A stretch of 64,000 nucleotides of DNA from an uncultured Bacteroidota bacterium. Its GTDB lineage: Bacteria > Bacteroidota > Bacteroidia > Bacteroidales > CAIWKO01. How positions within the stretch are numbered: the stretch's first letter is position 1; every line of letters starts with the position of its first letter. Below are positions 547 through 56,862 of the stretch, in pieces. Location of the stretch: assembly GCA_937934705.1 (NCBI GenBank), contig CALGYY010000098.1, positions 39,485-103,484 on the forward strand. Reading direction: 5' to 3'. The position numbers and the translations under genes are program-made. Under the pieces are notes generated by a model. It was not told the DNA's origin. It saw nothing but the letters and a program-made list of their open reading frames with translations, and made no database searches.

Positions 547-2832
547 TTAACGGATCAGGTTGATGTGGCCTTTGTGTTTGTGGATATTCCCTTTAACGTC
601 GTAAACACTCAGGATATAACTGTATAAGCCTTCCGGACAAACTTTGTCCTGACCCTGTATACGTCCGTCCCAACCCGAATTGATGTCGGGAGAGAAATAT
701 ACCTGGGTACCCCAGCGGTCATAGATCCTGATCTCAAACGTGGACTCATTCAGGCCCCAGCCAAACACCTGGAAAATATCGTTACGACCGTCGTTATTCG
801 GCGTAAAGGAATTGGGAGCATAAAAGGTGATCAGGGGTTCAATCACCACTGGTTTCACAACGGTATCAACGCAACCAAACTCGCTCATGATGGCCAGAGT
901 GACCCAGTAAGTTCCGACACCGTCATACTCATGGGTGGGATTGGGAAGGTTGGACGTATTCCCCAGAATATAATCTTCGCCGAAATCCCAGCTCCAGGTA
1001 CTGGCATTCACGCTCTGATCACCAAACCAGATGAACTGATCAAGCTCATCTGTGACCATGGGATTGTAGATGAAGTCAGCAATCGGATCCGGATGTATAG
1101 TAATCATTTGCGGAATGGTCATACTGCCGGCACAACCATCATCAGAAACCACACTCAGGGTAACATCATAACTTCCGGGCTCATCAAACAGATGCTTGGG
1201 GTTCTGCAGATGGTTAGAACTGTTCGCCGTGGTGTTGTCACCGAAATTCCAGAACCATTCATGGACGGGTGGTGTAGTGTTGTCGGTGAAGCTCACCCAG
1301 AGCTTTTCACAACCTTCCGTTACATCGGCACTGAAATCCACCACCGGACTCATACTAACTGTAACTGTCACCTCTCCTGTTCCGATACATCCGTTATTAT
1401 CGCCGGTAACCGTGTAAGTGGTGGTGTTCAGCGGGTAGGCCAGTACGTGGTTTCCGGAGGCGGTATTCAATCCGTAAACCGGACTCCAGGTGCAGTTGGC
1501 CGCACCATTCACTACCAGGGAGCTGGTGTCGCCCCTGCAGATCACAGGATCGGTTTGCGTGATCTGGATGTTGGGTCCCGGCGAGGCCGTAACCGTCACC
1601 GATGTAGAACCGGTACATCCGTTAACATCCGAACCAAAAACCACATAGGTTGTCGTTGTCACAGGACTGGCAGTCGTAAAAGAACAATCGGTACATGAAA
1701 GTCCTGAGGATGGTGCCCAGGCGTAATCATCGGCACCGCTGGCCGTCAGATCCACTGAGCCCCCGATGCAGATCATTGGTGCGGAAGGAGTCACCGAAAG
1801 GACAAGATCGGGATTGATATTGACCTGCACCGATGCAGTACCGGTACAGCCATTGGCATCCGTACCTGTAACCGTGTAGGTGGTCGGAGTGGTCGGATTA
1901 ACCGGGTTGGGATTGGTGCCGGAGCCATTGCTCCAGCTGTAATTTGTTCCGCCGGTTGTGCTGTTTCCGGTCAGGTTGATGGCCGTACCGCTGCAGGTCG
2001 AGGGATTCGCCGGGCTGATGCTGATGGTCGGATTCGGGTTCACCACTACCGTACAGGTAACGGCCGGACTGACCTGTGTTCCTACGGTAATGATCATGGA
2101 ATAAGTTCCCGACATGGCCAGCGTTGAGGCAGGGATGGTGGGATTCATTACTGAAGAAGTCCATCCGCCTGGCCCGGTCCAGCTGTATGAAGCTCCTGGT
2201 GTGGGGTTGGTAACCGTAAGCTGGATGGTCTGACCTTCACAAACCGTGTCCCCCACAATAGGAGGAGCCAGAATACCGCAATTGGTTGCGCCTGCTCCAC
2301 CCGTCTGCGAAAAAATGATGTTCTGACTGCTGTTAGAATAATTCGTGATCATGAGGATGTAATACTGCCCGGCCACGGCATTGGGGATGTAACACCATTC
2401 TTCATAGCTGGCGCTGTAACTGCAATCTATCATGTTGCCGCTGGGATAATCCGGGGAGGCCCCGGGGGCATGGTGAGTGGGGGTATTGGAACCAGCCGTT
2501 AACTGTGCAACACAGGGAGCCGTGGGGGAGGTAAAGGGACCCCAGCAGGCAAAATCGATATCATAATTTGAAGAACCGTGCATGTAAATTTCGATGGGTC
2601 CTGAAGTTAAAACCTGCATATAATACCAGGCCGGGTTGGGCTGTGAGTACAAACACCCATAATTGGCACCCACTTCAGCCGTACCGGCATTCACCCCAGC
2701 CGGAAAATTGTAGGTAGTCCCTGTACAGAACGGATCAGCATTGCTGCACAGGTTGTTAACCTGTGAGAAACCAGTGACAGACAGAAGGACCAATACTGCT
2801 ATGAGAAAAGTGAACTTTAAAGAGGTTTTCAT
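547..2832 (-). CDS. Secreted multi-Ig/PKD-domain adhesin-like protein with gliding-motility-type (CHU_C / T9SS type B) C-terminal domain
   Basis: 761-aa ORF. N-terminal signal peptide (MKTSLKFTFLIAVLVLLSVTGFSQ), repeated T/S/G-rich Ig-like modules with conserved Cys pairs, two PKD-like modules (WNFGDN.., WSWDFGED..), C-terminal FTPNNDGRNDIFQVFG..WDG motif. Confidence 0.85.
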   Translation of the reverse strand: MKTSLKFTFLIAVLVLLSVTGFSQVNNLCSNADPFCTGTTYNFPAGVNAGTAEVGANYGCLYSQPNPAWYYMQVLTSGPIEIYMHGSSNYDIDFACWGPFTSPTAPCVAQLTAGSNTPTHHAPGASPDYPSGNMIDCSYSASYEEWCYIPNAVAGQYYILMITNYSNSSQNIIFSQTGGAGATNCGILAPPIVGDTVCEGQTIQLTVTNPTPGASYSWTGPGGWTSSVMNPTIPASTLAMSGTYSMIITVGTQVSPAVTCTVVVNPNPTISISPANPSTCSGTAINLTGNSTTGGTNYSWSNGSGTNPNPVNPTTPTTYTVTGTDANGCTGTASVQVNINPDLVLSVTPSAPMICIGGSVDLTASGADDYAWAPSSGLSCTDCSFTTASPVTTTTYVVFGSDVNGCTGSTSVTVTASPGPNIQITQTDPVICRGDTSSLVVNGAANCTWSPVYGLNTASGNHVLAYPLNTTTYTVTGDNNGCIGTGEVTVTVSMSPVVDFSADVTEGCEKLWVSFTDNTTPPVHEWFWNFGDNTTANSSNHLQNPKHLFDEPGSYDVTLSVVSDDGCAGSMTIPQMITIHPDPIADFIYNPMVTDELDQFIWFGDQSVNASTWSWDFGEDYILGNTSNLPNPTHEYDGVGTYWVTLAIMSEFGCVDTVVKPVVIEPLITFYAPNSFTPNNDGRNDIFQVFGWGLNESTFEIRIYDRWGTQVYFSPDINSGWDGRIQGQDKVCPEGLYSYILSVYDVKGNIHKHKGHINLIR

Positions 2833-8111: not shown

Positions 8112-9125
8112 TCATCCTTTTAAGGTCATTACCGGATCTACATGTGAAGAACCGAGACCGGCCTGCAGGGATGCGGCCCTGCAACCCCCAAGGCAGCGAT
8201 CGTACAAGGTGCAGCCGTCACAGAACTCAGGTCTTTCGCTGAGCCAGGTCAGGGCGTGTTCCGAGCGGAAAATATCACTCAGTTTTTCTCTGAAAATATT
8301 GCCGGTACTGACGGGCGAATGGTTACAAAGACGAAGGTTTCCTTCAATATCCATGGTCACCGGCATCCTTTCCACTTGAGTGGAACAGGAGCCAAAACTG
8401 ATATTCGGGTATTCTGCCGGATTCAACAGACAAAAAGGTGTGCATACATTGGAGCTGAGCTTCAGTCCAAGCGGTACCGCAAGCTGATCGGCCTCACGGA
8501 ACGCCTGACGCAACTGCTCATGAGAGGGCAGAATTTCATGCGCTTCCCTGAATCCCTGCCCCCCGATATTATAGCGGTTCAGCATGATCTGCCGGCAACC
8601 CAGGGAATGAATGAAGTGAAGTGTACTTCCCAGATCTCCCGCATTCATCTTTGTGATTACGACAACCGGCACCACGTATGCACCCCCTTTCATCAGGCTG
8701 CGGATGCTGCGCACCGAGCGATCCCACGAACCGCTGACGCAGGTGATCCCGTCATGGACTTCAGGCAGATGTGAATGAACCGGTAATTCAAAAAGTTTGA
8801 CCCCGAGCTTCATCAAGGTCTGGTAACGGCTCTCATCACCCCCGCTGCCATTGGTGATGATGGTCACACTTTTTCTTTTCAGGCGGACAAAAAGCGCGAT
8901 CTCTTCGAAACGTTCAGCCAGCAACGGCTCTCCACCGGTGAAAGTGACATGTTTGACATCAGCCAGGCGAAAAAGTTTTTTGAGCACCCGTATGGCCCGC
9001 TGATAGGTGTATTCCGGAGACTTAACGGATGTGCCGGGAATTTTCCAGACATTGTAACAGTAGCGGCATTGAAGATTGCATGCCGCAGTGATTTCAAAGA
9101 TAATATATGGAAGATGGTATTTCAA
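8112..9125 (-). CDS. Radical SAM / SPASM-domain protein (peptide-maturase-like)
   Basis: CNLQCRYC (CxxxCxxC) at residues 16-23, GGEPLL, C-terminal Cys cluster with exact SPASM spacing CDGCTLYDRCLGGC (C-x2-C-x5-C-x3-C). Confidence 0.85.
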   Translation of the reverse strand: MKYHLPYIIFEITAACNLQCRYCYNVWKIPGTSVKSPEYTYQRAIRVLKKLFRLADVKHVTFTGGEPLLAERFEEIALFVRLKRKSVTIITNGSGGDESRYQTLMKLGVKLFELPVHSHLPEVHDGITCVSGSWDRSVRSIRSLMKGGAYVVPVVVITKMNAGDLGSTLHFIHSLGCRQIMLNRYNIGGQGFREAHEILPSHEQLRQAFREADQLAVPLGLKLSSNVCTPFCLLNPAEYPNISFGSCSTQVERMPVTMDIEGNLRLCNHSPVSTGNIFREKLSDIFRSEHALTWLSERPEFCDGCTLYDRCLGGCRAASLQAGLGSSHVDPVMTLKG

Positions 9126-52409: not shown

Positions 52410-52844
52410 ATGACCATAAGGATCGTCAACGAATCGCACCATCCCCTGCCTGCCTATGAAACCCTGGGCTCAGCAGGAGTGGACCTCAGGGCATACCTGA
52501 AAGAAGCCGTAATGCTGAAACCGATGCAAAGAGCCCTTATTCCCACCGGACTTTTTATCAGCCTGCCACCGGGCTACGAAGCCCAGGTGAGGCCGCGCTC
52601 AGGACTGGCTTTTAAGAAGGGTGTTACCGTGCTCAACACCCCTGGCACCATTGATGCCGATTACCGCGGTGAGATCAAGGTGATCCTCATCAACCTCTCG
52701 GAAGAAGATTTCCTGGTTCAGGATGGTGAAAGAATAGCCCAGATGGTCATCGCAGCCCACGAAAGGGCCGAATGGGTACAGGTTGATGTACTGGACGAAA
52801 CAGTCCGCGGAGCCGGAGGCTTCGGACATACCGGAACCAGTTGA
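52410..52844 (+). CDS. dut: dUTP diphosphatase
   Basis: [55 protein letters not shown]. Confidence 0.95.
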
Positions 52845-55940: not shown

Positions 55941-55984
55941 ATTGTGCAAATTTCAGACATTATATTGTGCAAATTTCAGACATT
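55941..55984. repeat. Tandem direct repeat 2 x 21 bp (ATTGTGCAAATTTCAGACATT) with 2-bp spacer
   Basis: Identical copies at 55941-55961 and 55964-55984, 45-88 nt upstream of the ATPase ATG (55896). Confidence 0.9.
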
Positions 55985-56260
55985 TTACTGTGCATTATTT
56001 AGAAATCCAGTACATTGTTGCCGATTGGGCAAACGAAGCGCAGTCTGAAAGCTTGACCCAGGCGTAAGTATTACGGTCAATAGATCATTTGACAACCGGA
56101 CCCCAGAAAAATCCGCCTGCCTGAAAAGCCAAGTCCGCCTTCTGATCCACCTGTTTTTTGAAAGGATTTGACCGGAGATGGACGGCCTGAAATTGAAAAG
56201 CCCGTTCAAACATTCGTTTGTGAAAGTTTCTGAACGGGCAGGGACAGTGTGAGTCTTGAG

Positions 56261-56325
56261 AAAAAAGAGAGCGAGAGTTCGGCTCAACCCTCTCAGGCCT
56301 CACTCTCACTCTCACTCTCTTTTTT
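56261..56325 (-). terminator. Terminator of the tRNA operon (A-run/T-run flanked, potentially bidirectional)
   Basis: GAGAGCGAGAG (56267-77) pairs with CTCTCACTCTC (56309-19) with one mismatch; flanked by A6 and T6. Confidence 0.55.
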
Positions 56326-56328
56326 AAG

Positions 56329-56403
56329 TGGGACGTACAAGACTCGAACTTGTGACCTCATGCGTGTGAAGCATGCGCTCTGAACCGACTGAGCTAACGT
56401 CCC
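56329..56403 (-). tRNA. tRNA-Val (anticodon CAC)
   Basis: GGGACGT-TA-GCTC..GAGC-G-CATGC-TTCACAC-GCATG-AGGTC-ACAAG-TTCGAGT-CTTGT-ACGTCCC-A; perfect cloverleaf. Confidence 0.9.
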
Positions 56404-56441
56404 CGAAAAGCAACCATGAATTGCTAATAACAAACCAGTTG

Positions 56442-56518
56442 AGGGATGTACAAGTTTCGAACTTGTGACCTTCCCGACTTGAAGTCGGGACGCTCTGAAC
56501 CGACTGAGCTAACGTCCC
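56442..56518 (-). tRNA. tRNA-Val-derived tRNA-like gene with UCA anticodon loop (candidate opal-suppressor-type or non-canonical tRNA)
   Basis: The 5' 28 nt are identical to tRNA-Val(CAC). The anticodon arm is replaced by TCCCGA-CTTCAAG-TCGGGA (6-bp stem, loop C-U-UCA-A-G; alternatively a 7-bp stem with a 5-nt loop). T arm intact; one C5:A68 acceptor mismatch; discriminator U. Confidence 0.5.
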
Positions 56519-56520
56519 GG

Positions 56521-56605
56521 TACAGTCAGCAGTGAACAGCAAGCAGTCAGCAGTGTTTGACTGAAAACTCACTGCTGACTGATTGCTGCTTGCTCTTGAC
56601 TGCAA
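56521..56605. repeat. Imperfect inverted repeat built from 7-bp-periodic CAG-containing units, in the spacer between tRNAs
   Basis: CAGTCAG CAGTGAA CAGCAAG CAGTCAG CAGTG .. loop .. CACTGCTGACTGATTGCTGCTTGCTCTTGACTG. Confidence 0.8.
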
Positions 56606-56607
56606 GG

Positions 56608-56682
56608 TGGGAGTTAACGGATTCGAACCATTGACCCTCTGCTTGTAAGGCAGATGCTCTGAACCAGCTGAGCTAAACTCCC
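56608..56682 (-). tRNA. tRNA-Val (anticodon TAC)
   Basis: GGGAGTT-TA-GCTC..GAGC-A-TCTGC-CTTACAA-GCAGA-GGGTC-AATGG-TTCGAAT-CCGTT-AACTCCC-A. Confidence 0.9.
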
Positions 56683-56836
56683 TTTATATCTCAAATAGCC
56701 CCCTGTTGACCCTCCCGACTGCAAGTCGGGATGCTTTGAACCAGCTGAGCTAAACTCCCTTTATATCTCAATTAGCCCCCTGTTGACCCTCCCGACTGCA
56801 AGTCGGGATGCTTTGAACCAGCTGGGCTGAATTCCC
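56683..56836 (-). repeat. Two tandem 77-bp truncated tRNA-like units (tRNA-Val(TAC) 5' half plus a foreign hairpin, no T arm or 3' acceptor strand)
   Basis: Units at 56683-56759 and 56760-56836: GGGAGTTTAGCTCAGCTGGTTCAAAGCA-TCCCGACTTGCAGTCGGGA-GGGTC-AACAGGGGGCTA(T/A)TTGAGATATAAA. The upstream unit has extra D-arm/acceptor substitutions. Confidence 0.85.
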
Positions 56837-56854: not shown

Positions 56855-56862
56855 CAAATATA
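56855..56862 (-). promoter_or_regulatory. Candidate -7 promoter box (TATATTTG) of the tRNA operon
   Basis: Minus-strand TATATTTG lies 19 nt upstream of the first tRNA-like unit. Confidence 0.45.

What the first reader, a model, noticed from the sequence alone, without database searches (positions are those of the whole stretch)
56442..56518. tRNA-Val-derived gene carrying a UCA (opal-reading) anticodon loop on a 6-bp stem
Seen: the minus-strand sequence is GGGACGTTAGCTCAGTCGGTTCAGAGCG-TCCCGA-CTTCAAG-TCGGGA-AGGTC-ACAAG-TTCGAAA-CTTGT-ACATCCC-T.

The first 28 nt are identical to the neighbouring tRNA-Val(CAC), and the T arm is nearly identical. The anticodon arm is replaced and is 2 nt longer. 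Read as a 6-bp stem with a 7-nt loop, it gives U33, anticodon UCA (plus-strand TGA at 56480-56482) and A37. The alternative reading is a 7-bp stem with a 5-nt loop, which could not decode. There is one C5:A68 acceptor mismatch, and the discriminator is U rather than A.

Established: UCA anticodons read UGA. They occur in tRNA-Sec, in code-4 tRNA-Trp and in suppressor tRNAs of recoded phages.

In this window TGA is plainly used as a stop (for example dut at 52842-52844 and the rSAM gene at 8112-8114), so genome-wide recoding is not supported.

Inference: this is either a low-level or conditional opal suppressor, a tRNA-like molecule with a non-decoding role, or a decaying duplicate.
Basis: partly seen in the sequence, partly recalled or inferred. 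Interest (0 to 1): 0.7.

Follow-up and report, generated by a model that had tools for sequence, protein, structure and literature searches.

The report
Hairpin-bearing tRNA-Val repeat, not suppressor
The supposed opal-reading tRNA is one of three copies of the neighbouring tRNA-Val genes whose anticodon arm has been replaced by a 19-base palindromic hairpin; the same hairpin, with a freely varying loop, sits beside tRNA genes and small GIY-YIG nuclease genes across the Bacteroidota, so the UCA triplet is incidental.

Summary
The sequence is as described. It is a full-length copy of the adjacent tRNA-Val(CAC) whose anticodon arm is replaced by TCCCGAC-TTCAA-GTCGGGA. ARAGORN calls it tRNA-SeC(tca); the Rfam tRNA model gives 50.7 bits against 70.5 for the parent.

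The typical layout is tandem 5'-half+hairpin units, then a real tRNA (mostly Val-UAC), then an ~86-aa Slx1-like GIY-YIG ORF, then hairpin plus tRNA 3' half.

The stem is conserved and shows compensatory changes. The loop is hypervariable:
- 28 different triplets.
- Lengths of 3-7 nt.
- Reverse-complement flips within single arrays.
- 29% are triplets that bacterial tRNAs do not use, which is the random expectation.

Related Val(UAC)→Val(CAC) operons carry such units sporadically and with unrelated loops. TGA is an ordinary stop in the window.

Verdict: this is an ORF-less, non-decoding member of an apparently undescribed hairpin/GIY-YIG tRNA-linked repeat family. Opal suppression is not supported. 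How the family propagates is inferred, not shown.

The parts
56855..56862 (-). Probable operon promoter: TATATTTG, a match to the Bacteroidota-type -7 box TAnnTTTG, upstream of the first hairpin unit
   Evidence: Sequence read. The sigma-70-like scan also places a site at 56884-56857. The same 'GTATATTTGCA' box precedes homologous operons in L147, L152, L156, L206 and L231. Assigning it as a promoter rests on my knowledge of the Bacteroidota consensus.
56760..56836 (-). Hairpin unit 1 (truncated). It consists of a 5' half resembling tRNA-Val(UAC), the hairpin TCCCGAC-TTGCA-GTCGGGA at 56790-56808, GGGTCAA, and an unrelated tail. There is no T arm and no acceptor 3' strand.
   Evidence: 77-nt tandem repeat D2; 24/28 identity to Val(UAC) on the 5' side, 10/31 on the 3' side. 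ARAGORN and Rfam do not call it.
56683..56759 (-). Hairpin unit 2 (truncated), a tandem copy of unit 1. The hairpin lies at 56713-56731 with loop TTGCA.
   Evidence: 97% identical to the neighbouring repeat; 27/28 on the 5' side, 10/31 on the 3' side versus Val(UAC).
56606..56682 (-). Genuine tRNA-Val(UAC), the usual anchor of this repeat family
   Evidence: ARAGORN. Rfam tRNA 71.5 bits. tRNA-Val(UAC) is the neighbouring tRNA for 53 of the 61 GIY-YIG ORFs that have a tRNA in range.
56523..56603 (.). 81-nt imperfect long hairpin filling the spacer between tRNA-Val(UAC) and the UCA unit. In other genomes a terminator and a GIY-YIG ORF occupy this slot.
   Evidence: Inverted repeat I1, 33-nt arms, 82% complementary. 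It was found only in this species. Only weak miRNA-like Rfam hits were returned. Its role is not determined.
56442..56518 (-). The finding: hairpin unit 3. It is a full-length copy of tRNA-Val(CAC) whose anticodon arm is replaced by TCCCGAC-TTCAA-GTCGGGA (56472-56490). The loop triplet TCA lies at 56482..56480.
56328..56403 (-). Genuine tRNA-Val(CAC), the parent of the UCA unit
   Evidence: ARAGORN. Rfam tRNA 70.5 bits.
56261..56325 (-). Terminator-like hairpin followed by a T run, closing the operon
   Evidence: Inverted repeat I5, 18-nt arms, 94% complementary. Terminator-like site at 56292-56273.

Best explanation
The unit at 56442-56518 is a non-decoding, ORF-less member of a family of tRNA-gene-derived repeat units found across the Bacteroidota. 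In these units the anticodon arm is replaced by a GC-rich palindromic hairpin ('HP') with core TCCCG...CGGGA, most often TCCCGAC-N5-GTCGGGA.

Shown:
1. The same HP occurs three times in this one tRNA operon.
2. It occurs in about 180 units at 118 loci elsewhere.
3. The canonical locus reads: [tRNA 5' half + HP] repeated, then a real tRNA, then [~86-aa Slx1-like GIY-YIG ORF + HP + tRNA 3' half] repeated. The ORF usually ends ...GSEHPD*, with its stop codon inside the HP loop.
4. The stem is conserved and compensated, while the loop is free to vary.
5. Units are gained and lost between close relatives.

Inferred:
- The HP belongs to the GIY-YIG cassette.
- The UCA unit arose when a tandem duplicate of tRNA-Val(CAC) had its anticodon arm converted to the HP. 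Short-patch recombination or template switching from a neighbouring HP unit would do this, using the conserved ..AGAGC / GGTC.. flanks.
- The unit is young, being 54/58 identical to its parent. With time such units lose one half and become the truncated forms seen upstream.
- The HP is the cis-acting site on which the structure-specific (Slx1-type) nuclease acts. The resulting breaks would be repaired by recombination between tRNA-like segments, which amplifies and spreads the units. This parallels SegB-driven tandem amplification of tRNA+segB in phage T6.

The unit is co-transcribed with the two tRNA-Val genes. It is not expected to be charged or to read UGA.
For: Family membership:
- The pattern AGCNNCCCGACTNNNAGTCGGGNNGGTC has 21 fixed bases, so about 0.3 chance hits are expected in 596 Gb (my arithmetic).
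Nearly all are Bacteroidota, including cultured isolates of Niastella, Parapedobacter, Longitalea, Litoribacter, Anditalea and Melioribacter.

Architecture:
- Map of all loci.
- HP units upstream of a real tRNA share its 5' part (94% identity) but not its 3' part (46%). Downstream units share the 3' part (86%) but not the 5' part (61%).
- 85 GIY-YIG ORFs were found in these loci. 55 have an HP at the ORF end, and 53 lie after tRNA-Val(UAC).
- Pfam GIY-YIG, E = 1e-17. The nearest solved structures are the UPF0213 / bacterial Slx1-like proteins 1ywl and 1zg2 (PMC1564403).
- The link holds from the protein side too. Of the 80 closest homologue clusters, 47 end exactly in SEHPD. About 14 more read through the hairpin as SEHPDxxSGGS.

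Loop not under decoding selection:
- 28 different triplets.
- 53/183 (29%) have A34 (other than ACG) or are nonsense anticodons. The random expectation is 28% (counts).
- Stop-generating triplets (T+GA/AA/AG) make up 39% against 19% expected, which reflects the ORF stop codon.
- Loop lengths of 3-7 nt in loci not selected for the HP.
- Reverse-complement loop pairs occur in 4 of 11 multi-loop loci, against a null mean of about 1 (P≈0.006). L078 has TGC and GCA in one array.
- UCA recurs only in L024, L028 and L083, next to UUA variants. L083 is also called tRNA-SeC.

Stem conserved and compensated:
- TCCCGCC/GGCGGGA, CCCCGAC/GTCGGGG and TCCCGAT/ATCGGGA.
- TCCCGC-CTAA-GCGGGA is identical in all units of L242.

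Sporadic distribution among 29 Val(UAC)→Val(CAC) operons:
- 8 have upstream HP units.
- 3 have an HP unit between the two genes.
- 1 has a GIY cassette between the two genes.
- 17 have none.
- L206 and L231/L234 share the same leader and differ by one 71-nt unit.

The unit itself:
- C32:G38 pairing probability is 0.999. Only 2 of 123 real tRNAs in the loci have C32:G38.
- The cloverleaf with an open 7-nt loop is -20.7 kcal/mol. With the closed loop it is -24.1. A non-cloverleaf minimum-free-energy fold is -28.8. The parent's minimum-free-energy fold is the cloverleaf.
- ValRS identity elements A35, C36 and A73 are all absent (sequence; identity rules from my knowledge).
- TGA is a normal stop.

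Analogue: SegB drives tandem tRNA+segB amplification through microhomology between the tRNA 5' end and the segB 3' end (PMC13096335).
Against: - There is no GIY-YIG ORF in the 64-kb window (tblastn). The link to the cassette is by family resemblance only. I could not check the rest of this genome.
- The UCA unit is atypical for the family. It is one of only 2 of 74 upstream units that keep both halves. It still scores well above the Rfam tRNA threshold and lies inside a tRNA operon, so it may well be processed into a stable tRNA-sized RNA.
- Conservation of the stem across the phylum points to a function that I have not identified. It could act at the RNA level rather than the DNA level.
- The nuclease-on-hairpin step, the conversion step and the direction of copying are all inferences.
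- The genome-wide sample was drawn with a pattern that fixes the stem and a 5-nt loop. Statements about variability therefore rest mainly on the smaller unselected sets.
- Expression, processing and charging were not testable.
Confidence: 0.8

Rival explanations
1. It is a functional, low-level or conditional opal suppressor tRNA. In this reading the arm opens to a 6-bp stem with a 7-nt loop (U33, UCA, A37), the RNA is charged by some synthetase, and it reads UGA.
For: - ARAGORN calls it a tRNA with anticodon tca.
- Rfam tRNA 50.7 bits, above the gathering score of 29.
- The D arm and T arm are intact and 6 of 7 acceptor pairs are kept.
- It lies in a transcribed tRNA operon.
Against: - The same arm occurs in truncated units that cannot be tRNAs, in this very operon.
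- The loop triplet is unconstrained across the family, including anticodons bacteria never use, at the random frequency.
- Loop length and orientation vary.
- C32:G38 closes the loop (P = 0.999), which costs 3.4 kcal/mol to open.
- A competing non-cloverleaf fold is 4.7 kcal/mol more stable than the closed-loop cloverleaf (-28.8 against -24.1 kcal/mol).
- The Val identity elements and the G73 needed by TrpRS are absent (sequence; identity rules from my knowledge).
- The same slot in related operons holds units with loops CCA or TGCG, or nothing at all.
- TGA ends 7 of 38 long reading frames, including dut.
Confidence: 0.04
2. The hairpin-bearing tRNA-like units act as RNA. They might be leader or trailer elements of tRNA operons and of the GIY-YIG mRNA that direct processing or protect 3' ends. 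Alternatively they might be tRNA mimics that titrate a tRNA-binding factor such as RNase P/Z, a modification enzyme or an anticodon nuclease. In this reading the UCA unit is a full-length version of such a mimic.
For: - The stem is conserved with two-sided changes, and G·U-compatible variants such as TCCCGGC/GTCGGGA exist.
- The units always lie on the transcribed strand, inside tRNA or rRNA operons.
- A homologous leader unit persists in several diverged lineages (L147, L152, L156, L231) with conserved flanks.
- In cassettes the hairpin plus T arm would form the mRNA 3' end.
Against: - No sequence or structure is conserved outside the hairpin in the truncated units.
- Occurrence is sporadic, with presence or absence differing between close relatives.
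- Loop inversion and perfect arm symmetry are signatures of DNA palindrome dynamics.
- No Rfam family matches.
- Arm-to-arm correction in DNA can also produce compensated stems without any selection on RNA.
Confidence: 0.15
3. It is simply a decaying tandem duplicate of tRNA-Val(CAC). Its anticodon arm mutated by chance into a longer hairpin, with no relation to anything else.
For: The 5' 28 nt are identical and the 3' part is 26/30 identical to the adjacent gene. One acceptor pair is broken and the discriminator has changed.
Against: - The 19-nt arm is identical apart from the loop to two other arms in the operon.
- It also matches arms at more than 118 loci in other genomes. That cannot be independent decay.
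- All changes relative to the parent are concentrated in one clean replacement of the arm.
Confidence: 0.01

Closest known systems
Free-standing GIY-YIG homing endonuclease SegB in the tRNA gene cluster of T-even phages
   Same: Both are small GIY-YIG genes embedded among tRNA genes. In both, the 3' end of the nuclease gene shares sequence with a tRNA gene. In both, tandem arrays of [tRNA segment + nuclease gene] arise by homologous recombination (PMC13096335). Compare the 9 tandem 337-nt cassettes in L007.
   Different: - The protein here is a minimal ~86-aa Slx1-like/UPF0213 domain (PMC1564403). It is not of the homing-endonuclease lineage and has no DNA-binding module.
- The element is chromosomal and Bacteroidota-wide, with no hit in 2.9 million viral contigs.
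- The repeats carry a conserved palindromic hairpin in place of the anticodon arm.
- Nuclease activity and target are untested.
Partial tRNA genes left by mobile elements that integrate into tRNA genes, and their mis-annotation as tRNAs (PMC9897764)
   Same: Both show a complete tRNA gene plus partial direct-repeat copies flanking inserted DNA. In both, the fragments are called as tRNAs with odd identities by tRNA finders. Here ARAGORN calls units SeC(tca), Gly(acc), Phe(aaa), Ile(tat) and Val(aac).
   Different: - The inserted unit here is only ~340 nt and has no integrase.
- Fragments lie on both sides of the tRNA: 5' halves upstream and 3' halves downstream.
- They are often in tandem arrays.
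- Every fragment carries the same hairpin at the anticodon-arm position.
tRNA-linked repeats such as the rtT repeats downstream of E. coli tyrT (from my own knowledge, not checked here)
   Same: Both are tandem repeats within a tRNA operon, each containing a piece of the tRNA gene, and both are co-transcribed.
   Different: The E. coli repeats have no hairpin substitution and no nuclease ORF. They are restricted to one locus and taxon.
Opal-reading tRNAs: tRNA-Sec, code-4 tRNA-Trp(UCA), suppressor tRNAs
   Same: A UCA triplet flanked by U and A within a tRNA-shaped sequence. ARAGORN labels it SeC.
   Different: - It has a 7/5 acceptor/T fold with a 5-nt variable loop, not the 8/5 fold with a long extra arm of bacterial tRNA-Sec (tRNA-Sec features from my knowledge).
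- The loop is closed by C32:G38.
- The anticodon is not conserved in related units.
- TGA is a stop here.
Hairpin repeat systems with a dedicated nuclease or transposase (REP/RAYT, IS200/IS605) (from my own knowledge)
   Same: Both have a short conserved palindrome that multiplies in the genome and is linked to a small nuclease-family gene. In both, the loop is free and the stem conserved.
   Different: The enzyme here is a GIY-YIG, not a Y1/HUH transposase. The hairpin was found here only embedded in tRNA-derived sequence, at the anticodon-arm position and rarely in the T arm or D loop. It was not seen dispersed in intergenic DNA, though the search pattern required tRNA-like flanks.

Membership tests
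Functional UGA-decoding tRNA (suppressor, tRNA-Sec, tRNA-Trp UCA) | Open 7-nt anticodon loop, with positions 32 and 38 not Watson-Crick paired | tested here: not met
   C32:G38 is predicted to be paired with probability 0.999. The arm folds as a stem of 7-8 bp. Only 2 of 123 real tRNAs in the fetched loci have C32:G38. Opening the loop costs 3.4 kcal/mol. This is a prediction only.
Functional UGA-decoding tRNA (suppressor, tRNA-Sec, tRNA-Trp UCA) | Anticodon conserved in orthologous or related genes | tested here: not met
   28 different loop triplets occur among about 180 units. Units in the same slot of related Val(UAC)→Val(CAC) operons have loops CCA or TGCG, or the slot is empty. UCA sits next to UUA variants in L024 and L028.
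Functional UGA-decoding tRNA (suppressor, tRNA-Sec, tRNA-Trp UCA) | tRNA-Sec architecture (8-bp acceptor, 6-bp D stem, long extra arm), or synthetase identity elements for some amino acid | tested here: not met
   The cmscan alignment shows a standard 7/5 cloverleaf with a 5-nt variable loop. A35, C36 and A73 of tRNA-Val are lost, and there is no G73 for TrpRS (sequence; identity rules from my knowledge).
Functional UGA-decoding tRNA (suppressor, tRNA-Sec, tRNA-Trp UCA) | UGA used as a sense codon, or selA/selB/selD present | tested here: inconclusive
   TGA terminates 7 of 38 long reading frames in the window, so there is no recoding. I did not look for sel genes in the window, and the rest of the genome was not available.
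Functional UGA-decoding tRNA (suppressor, tRNA-Sec, tRNA-Trp UCA) | Mature, CCA-tailed, aminoacylated transcript | not testable with these tools
   Needs tRNA-seq, a northern blot or an acid gel.
Hairpin (HP)-type tRNA-linked repeat units of Bacteroidota (family defined in this report) | Palindrome with core TCCCG...CGGGA in place of the anticodon arm, between ..AGC(N) and (N)GGTC.. | tested here: met
   The arm at 56472-56490 is TCCCGACTTCAAGTCGGGA, flanked by AGCG and AGGTC. It is identical to the family consensus.
Hairpin (HP)-type tRNA-linked repeat units of Bacteroidota (family defined in this report) | Flanks copied from the adjacent genuine tRNA gene, on the same strand and in the same operon | tested here: met
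   28/28 and 26/30 identity to tRNA-Val(CAC), which lies 38 nt downstream. The family rule is 94% 5' identity for upstream units.
Hairpin (HP)-type tRNA-linked repeat units of Bacteroidota (family defined in this report) | Location at a tRNA-Val(UAC) locus together with other HP units | tested here: met
   Two more HP units and tRNA-Val(UAC) lie 88-320 nt upstream. Val(UAC) is the dominant anchor of the family.
Hairpin (HP)-type tRNA-linked repeat units of Bacteroidota (family defined in this report) | GIY-YIG (UPF0213/Slx1-like) ORF ending in or next to the hairpin | tested here: not met
   There is no GIY-YIG ORF anywhere in the window (tblastn). The window's units are ORF-less, as are about half of the sampled loci.
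Free-standing GIY-YIG homing endonuclease cassette (SegB-like) | Homing-endonuclease-lineage GIY-YIG domain plus a DNA-binding module | tested here: not met
   The family's protein is ~86 aa. The Pfam GIY-YIG match covers residues 1-71. The nearest solved structures are the bacterial Slx1-like proteins 1ywl and 1zg2 (PMC1564403).
Free-standing GIY-YIG homing endonuclease cassette (SegB-like) | Site-specific cleavage of the cassette-less allele, and homing | not testable with these tools
   Only presence/absence polymorphism (L206 versus L231/L234) and tandem amplification (L007) are visible.
Ordinary tRNA pseudogene (decaying duplicate) | Degeneration by scattered, lineage-specific mutations with no shared derived sequence | tested here: not met
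   The difference from the parent is one clean replacement of the arm. The replacing sequence is shared with more than 118 loci in other genomes.

The most novel reading that the evidence does not exclude
The hairpin and the ~86-aa Slx1-like GIY-YIG gene together form a previously undescribed, very small (~340 nt) self-propagating cassette of Bacteroidota chromosomes.

In this reading a structure-specific nuclease acts on a palindrome encoded at the 3' end of its own gene, with its stop codon in the hairpin loop. The cassette uses the universally conserved D-arm and T-arm segments of tRNA genes as homology platforms. That lets it amplify in tandem and hop between unrelated tRNA genes. It would leave behind hairpin-capped tRNA halves and, rarely, full-length tRNA look-alikes such as this UCA unit.

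A bolder variant is that the full-length look-alikes are processed into stable tRNA-shaped RNAs with a non-decoding role.
Probability: 0.4. Interest if true: 0.7.

Novelty: new variant of a known kind. Interest (0 to 1): 0.5.

Why it matters
For this locus, the result removes a false lead. Gene finders label the unit tRNA-SeC(tca). They label sister units Gly(acc), Phe(aaa), Ile(tat) and others. None of these should be read as recoding or suppressor tRNAs, and they will contaminate tRNA inventories of Bacteroidota genomes and metagenome-assembled genomes. They also break assemblies: one NCBI contig ends inside the array.

More broadly, the locus points to a phylum-wide, apparently undescribed association between three things:
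- tRNA genes, above all tRNA-Val(UAC), and also tRNA genes in rRNA spacers;
- a conserved palindrome;
- a minimal Slx1-like GIY-YIG nuclease.

The function of prokaryotic Slx1-like/UPF0213 proteins is not known to me. If the nuclease acts on the hairpin, this would give that family a concrete substrate and role. It would also be a chromosomal counterpart of the SegB-driven tRNA-locus amplification recently shown in phages.

Tried and rejected
- Rfam, at gathering score on the window and on 16 related loci, and at E≤1 on the operon. Only tRNA matches were returned for full-length units. Nothing matched the truncated units or the hairpin. The spacer hairpin gave weak miRNA-like hits that I regard as chance.
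- Phage origin. The hairpin pattern has no match in the viral contig collection.
- GIY-YIG gene in the window. tblastn with four family members found only the hairpin-encoded tail.
- NCBIfam gives no name for the GIY-YIG protein.
- 'The hairpin is an operator for a dimeric DNA-binding protein.' Rejected because the spacing between the arms varies from 3 to 7 nt.
- 'Classical homing with the tRNA gene as target and the hairpin copy as the immune allele.' Considered unlikely, because every occupied locus keeps an intact tRNA gene next to the cassette, so an intact target would remain. Not excluded.
- A relaxed hairpin regex picked up an unrelated 21-nt coding tandem repeat in L120. Discarded.
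- My first count said that no related operon had a hairpin unit between the two Val genes. This was wrong because the regex missed the TCCCGCC variant stems. Corrected.
- Eight full-text literature searches found no description of this element. Papers in subscription journals are not covered.
- One look-up (P0076) returned no DNA.
Full report
**1. The observation**

- ARAGORN reports it as tRNA-SeC(tca) at 56441-56518.
- The Rfam tRNA model gives 50.7 bits. The flanking tRNA-Val(CAC) at 56403-56328 scores 70.5 and tRNA-Val(UAC) at 56682-56606 scores 71.5.
- Against tRNA-Val(CAC), the first 28 nt are identical and the stretch from GGTC to the 3' end is 26/30 identical.
- The 17-nt anticodon arm is replaced by the 19-nt palindrome TCCCGAC-TTCAA-GTCGGGA at 56490-56472.
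- C5:A68 is mismatched and the discriminator is U.

All of that is confirmed.

These copies sit in two 77-nt tandem units made of the 5' half of tRNA-Val(UAC), the hairpin, GGGTCAA and an unrelated tail. These units have no T arm or acceptor 3' strand, so they cannot be tRNAs. Shuffled sequence gives 0.06 matches to the palindrome. The window holds exactly five tRNA-Val-type 5' halves, three of them with the hairpin, and three T arms.

On the minus strand the operon reads:
1. promoter-like TATATTTG (56862-56855);
2. hairpin unit 1;
3. hairpin unit 2;
4. tRNA-Val(UAC);
5. an 81-nt long hairpin spacer;
6. the UCA unit;
7. tRNA-Val(CAC);
8. terminator.

**2. The arm is a phylum-wide element**

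I searched 185,579 species genomes for AGCNNCCCGACTNNNAGTCGGGNNGGTC. With 21 fixed bases, about 0.3 chance hits are expected in 596 Gb on two strands.

Nearly all hits are Bacteroidota: Bacteroidales, Rikenellaceae, Prolixibacteraceae, Chitinophagaceae, Sphingobacteriales, Cytophagales, Flavobacteriales and Saprospirales. Melioribacter also appears. Cultured isolates are included, so this is not an assembly artefact. Many loci hold several copies.

The pattern has no match in 2.9 million viral contigs. No Rfam family covers it.

**3. Anatomy of the family**

Mapping real tRNAs, hairpins (HP) and ORFs in all loci gives one recurring layout:
- tandem [tRNA 5' half + HP + a few T-stem bases] units of 75-100 nt;
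- then a genuine tRNA;
- then one or more [small ORF + HP + T arm + acceptor 3' strand] units.

L007 has nine tandem 337-nt cassettes after tRNA-Val(UAC).

The ORF:
- It is a GIY-YIG domain protein of about 86 aa (Pfam PF01541, E = 1e-17).
- Its nearest solved relatives are the UPF0213 proteins 1ywl and 1zg2.
- Dunin-Horkawicz et al. place those two proteins in the prokaryotic Slx1-like cluster, the minimal GIY-YIG form (PMC1564403).
- It typically ends ...GSEHPD*. The last six codons are the tRNA D-loop/D-stem sequence GGTTCAGAGCA plus the 5' arm of the hairpin, and the stop codon (T+GA or T+AA) lies in the loop.

Counts:
- 85 GIY-YIG ORFs lie in the sampled loci. 55 have an HP at their end. 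53 follow tRNA-Val(UAC).
- From the protein side, which is independent of my DNA pattern, 47 of the 80 closest homologue clusters end exactly in SEHPD. About 14 more read through the hairpin as SEHPDxxSGGS.

A polarity rule holds:
- HP units upstream of a real tRNA share its 5' part (mean 94% identity) but not its 3' part (46%).
- Downstream units share its 3' part (86%) but not its 5' part (61%).
- Only 2 of 74 upstream units keep both halves. The window's UCA unit is one of them.

Other tRNA genes are also used, sometimes several in one genome: Arg-UCU, Ala-UGC in rRNA spacers, Met, Lys, Thr and Asn. In each case the flanks are copied from the local tRNA.

**4. The loop is not an anticodon**

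- Among about 180 units the three central loop bases take 28 different values. The commonest are GAA 36, AAA 19, TTT 15, TCC 15, TTC 13, TGC 11 and GCA 10. TCA occurs 4 times.
- 53/183 (29%) have A34 (other than ACG) or are nonsense anticodons, which bacterial tRNAs do not use. The random expectation is 18/64 = 28%.
- Triplets that create a stop codon with the preceding T make up 39% against 19% expected. This also holds in ORF-less upstream units. It suggests that the hairpins derive from the cassette, where the loop carries the ORF's stop.
- Loop triplets come in reverse-complement pairs: GAA/TTC, AAA/TTT, TAA/TTA, TGC/GCA. Four of eleven loci with more than one loop type contain such a pair, against a null mean of about 1 (P≈0.006). 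L078 has TGC and GCA in one array with identical flanks. This is the behaviour of a DNA palindrome whose loop inverts, not of an anticodon.
- In loci that were not selected for the hairpin (anchored on the tRNA-Val(CAC) arm, and a protein look-up), loops are 3-7 nt long. Examples are TTA, ACA, CCA, CTAA, CTCA, AACAC, TAACAA, GGACAC and TCGCAGA.
- Four homologous leader units (L147, L152, L156, L231) have conserved flanks and entirely different loops.
- UCA itself recurs in three unrelated units, two of them beside UUA variants: L024, L028 and L083. L083 is also called tRNA-SeC.

By contrast the stem is conserved. Where it changes, it changes on both sides: TCCCGCC/GGCGGGA, CCCCGAC/GTCGGGG, TCCCGAT/ATCGGGA. 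TCCCGC-CTAA-GCGGGA is identical in all upstream and downstream units of L242.

**5. The UCA unit as a molecule**

- The isolated arm folds into a stem of 7-8 bp (-12.5 kcal/mol, against about -5.4 for the real Val arms), with C32:G38 paired at probability 0.999. Only 2 of 123 genuine tRNAs in the loci have C32:G38.
- For the whole unit, the cloverleaf with the closed loop is -24.1 kcal/mol and with an open 7-nt loop -20.7. An alternative fold, in which GGGACG (1-6) pairs with CGUCCC of the arm, is -28.8. The parent's minimum-free-energy structure is the cloverleaf.
- The Val identity elements A35, C36 and A73 are all gone, and G73, which TrpRS needs, is absent (sequence; identity rules from my knowledge).
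- TGA ends 7 of 38 long reading frames in the window.

**6. Related operons**

Among 29 metagenomic operons with tRNA-Val(UAC) followed by tRNA-Val(CAC):
- 8 carry upstream HP units.
- 3 (L162, L165, L215) carry an ORF-less HP unit between the two genes.
- 1 (L240) carries a GIY-YIG ORF plus an HP-like palindrome between the two genes.
- 17 have nothing.

L206 and L231/L234 share the same promoter and leader and differ by one 71-nt HP unit. The slot that holds the UCA unit is therefore a recurrent slot for this element. Occupancy is sporadic and the loop is never conserved.

**7. Explanation**

Shown: family membership, architecture, polarity, the link to the GIY-YIG ORF, a conserved stem with a free loop, and gain or loss between relatives.

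Inferred:
- The HP is a cis element of the GIY-YIG cassette.
- The UCA unit arose from a tandem duplicate of tRNA-Val(CAC) whose arm was converted to the HP from a neighbouring unit, using the short conserved ..AGAGC / GGTC.. flanks. It is young.
- Truncated units are older or recombined forms.
- The Slx1-type nuclease acts on the extruded or single-stranded hairpin. Repair by recombination between tRNA-like segments then yields tandem arrays and spread.

The closest experimentally studied analogue is SegB, a GIY-YIG endonuclease of phage T6. It drives tandem amplification of a tRNA+segB segment through microhomology between the tRNA 5' region and the segB 3' end (PMC13096335).

Partial tRNA genes created by integrating elements, and their mis-calling as tRNAs, are also known (PMC9897764).

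Rivals: an RNA-level role for the units (about 0.15), a genuine suppressor (about 0.04), and chance decay (about 0.01).

**8. Limits**

- No GIY-YIG ORF lies in the window, and the rest of the genome was not available.
- The large sample was drawn with a pattern that fixes the stem and a 5-nt loop.
- Nuclease activity, expression and processing are untested.
- Eight literature searches found no description of the element, but subscription journals are not covered.

**9. Verdict**

The opal-suppressor interpretation is not supported. The unit is an ORF-less, full-length member of a hairpin/GIY-YIG tRNA-linked repeat family. That family looks like a new variant of known kinds: tRNA-linked repeats, and nuclease-associated tRNA-locus amplification. 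Interest is moderate (0.5). It is low for the tRNA itself and higher for the family it reveals.

Noticed in passing
window 56523-56603: An 81-nt imperfect long hairpin (33-nt arms, 82% complementary) fills the spacer between tRNA-Val(UAC) and the UCA unit. This is the slot where terminators and GIY-YIG ORFs lie in other genomes. It was found only in this species and gave only weak miRNA-like Rfam hits.
   Followed up: partly
window 55941-55986: Two tandem 23-nt direct repeats (ATTGTGCAAATTTCAGACATTAT/TT) lie just upstream of the AAA-ATPase/DUF4143 gene.
   Followed up: no
window 56261-56325: The arms of the operon terminator are built from GAGAGT-like repeats (AAAAAAGAGAGTGAGAGTGAGAGT ... ACTCTCGCTCTCTTTTTT).
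   Followed up: no
L053, L063, L075, L088, L094, L118 (T arm); L022, L072, L027 (D loop); L083, L027, L240 (T loop): Related palindromes (TCCCGCC-GAA-GCGGGA, TCCCGAT-AGCT-ATCGGGA) also replace or interrupt the T arm or D loop of some hairpin units. The TCCCG...CGGGA hairpin is therefore not confined to the anticodon-arm position.
   Followed up: partly
L049 1433-1689 (Litoribacter ruber); also L005, L015, L052, L070, L078: Arrays of hairpin units lie inside 16S-23S rRNA spacers, next to tRNA-Ile and tRNA-Ala.
   Followed up: no
L007 339-3312: Nine near-identical tandem 337-nt cassettes (GIY-YIG ORF + hairpin + tRNA 3' half) follow one tRNA-Val(UAC) in a Bacteroidales metagenome-assembled genome.
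   Followed up: yes
L002 (GCA_036782535.1, contig DAIPYW010000081): The NCBI contig of the window's own species ends inside the hairpin-unit array, so the repeats break short-read assemblies.
   Followed up: no
L038, L082, L084, L107: A few hairpin/GIY-YIG loci sit in bins labelled Comamonadaceae, Saccharibacteria, Akkermansia and Neomarinimicrobiota. This could be mis-binning or horizontal transfer.
   Followed up: no
L242 900-1800: A variant hairpin, TCCCGC-CTAA-GCGGGA, is identical in the upstream 5'-half units and in both downstream GIY-YIG cassettes of one locus. The hairpin therefore evolves in concert within a locus.
   Followed up: yes
L120 5490-5700: An unrelated 21-nt tandem repeat (…GTATCGGGATCACCCGAYG…), probably coding, was picked up by a relaxed hairpin regex. 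It is not part of the family.
   Followed up: yes
window 673-691: A weak (3-mismatch) match to the hairpin pattern lies inside a long ORF. It is probably chance.
   Followed up: no
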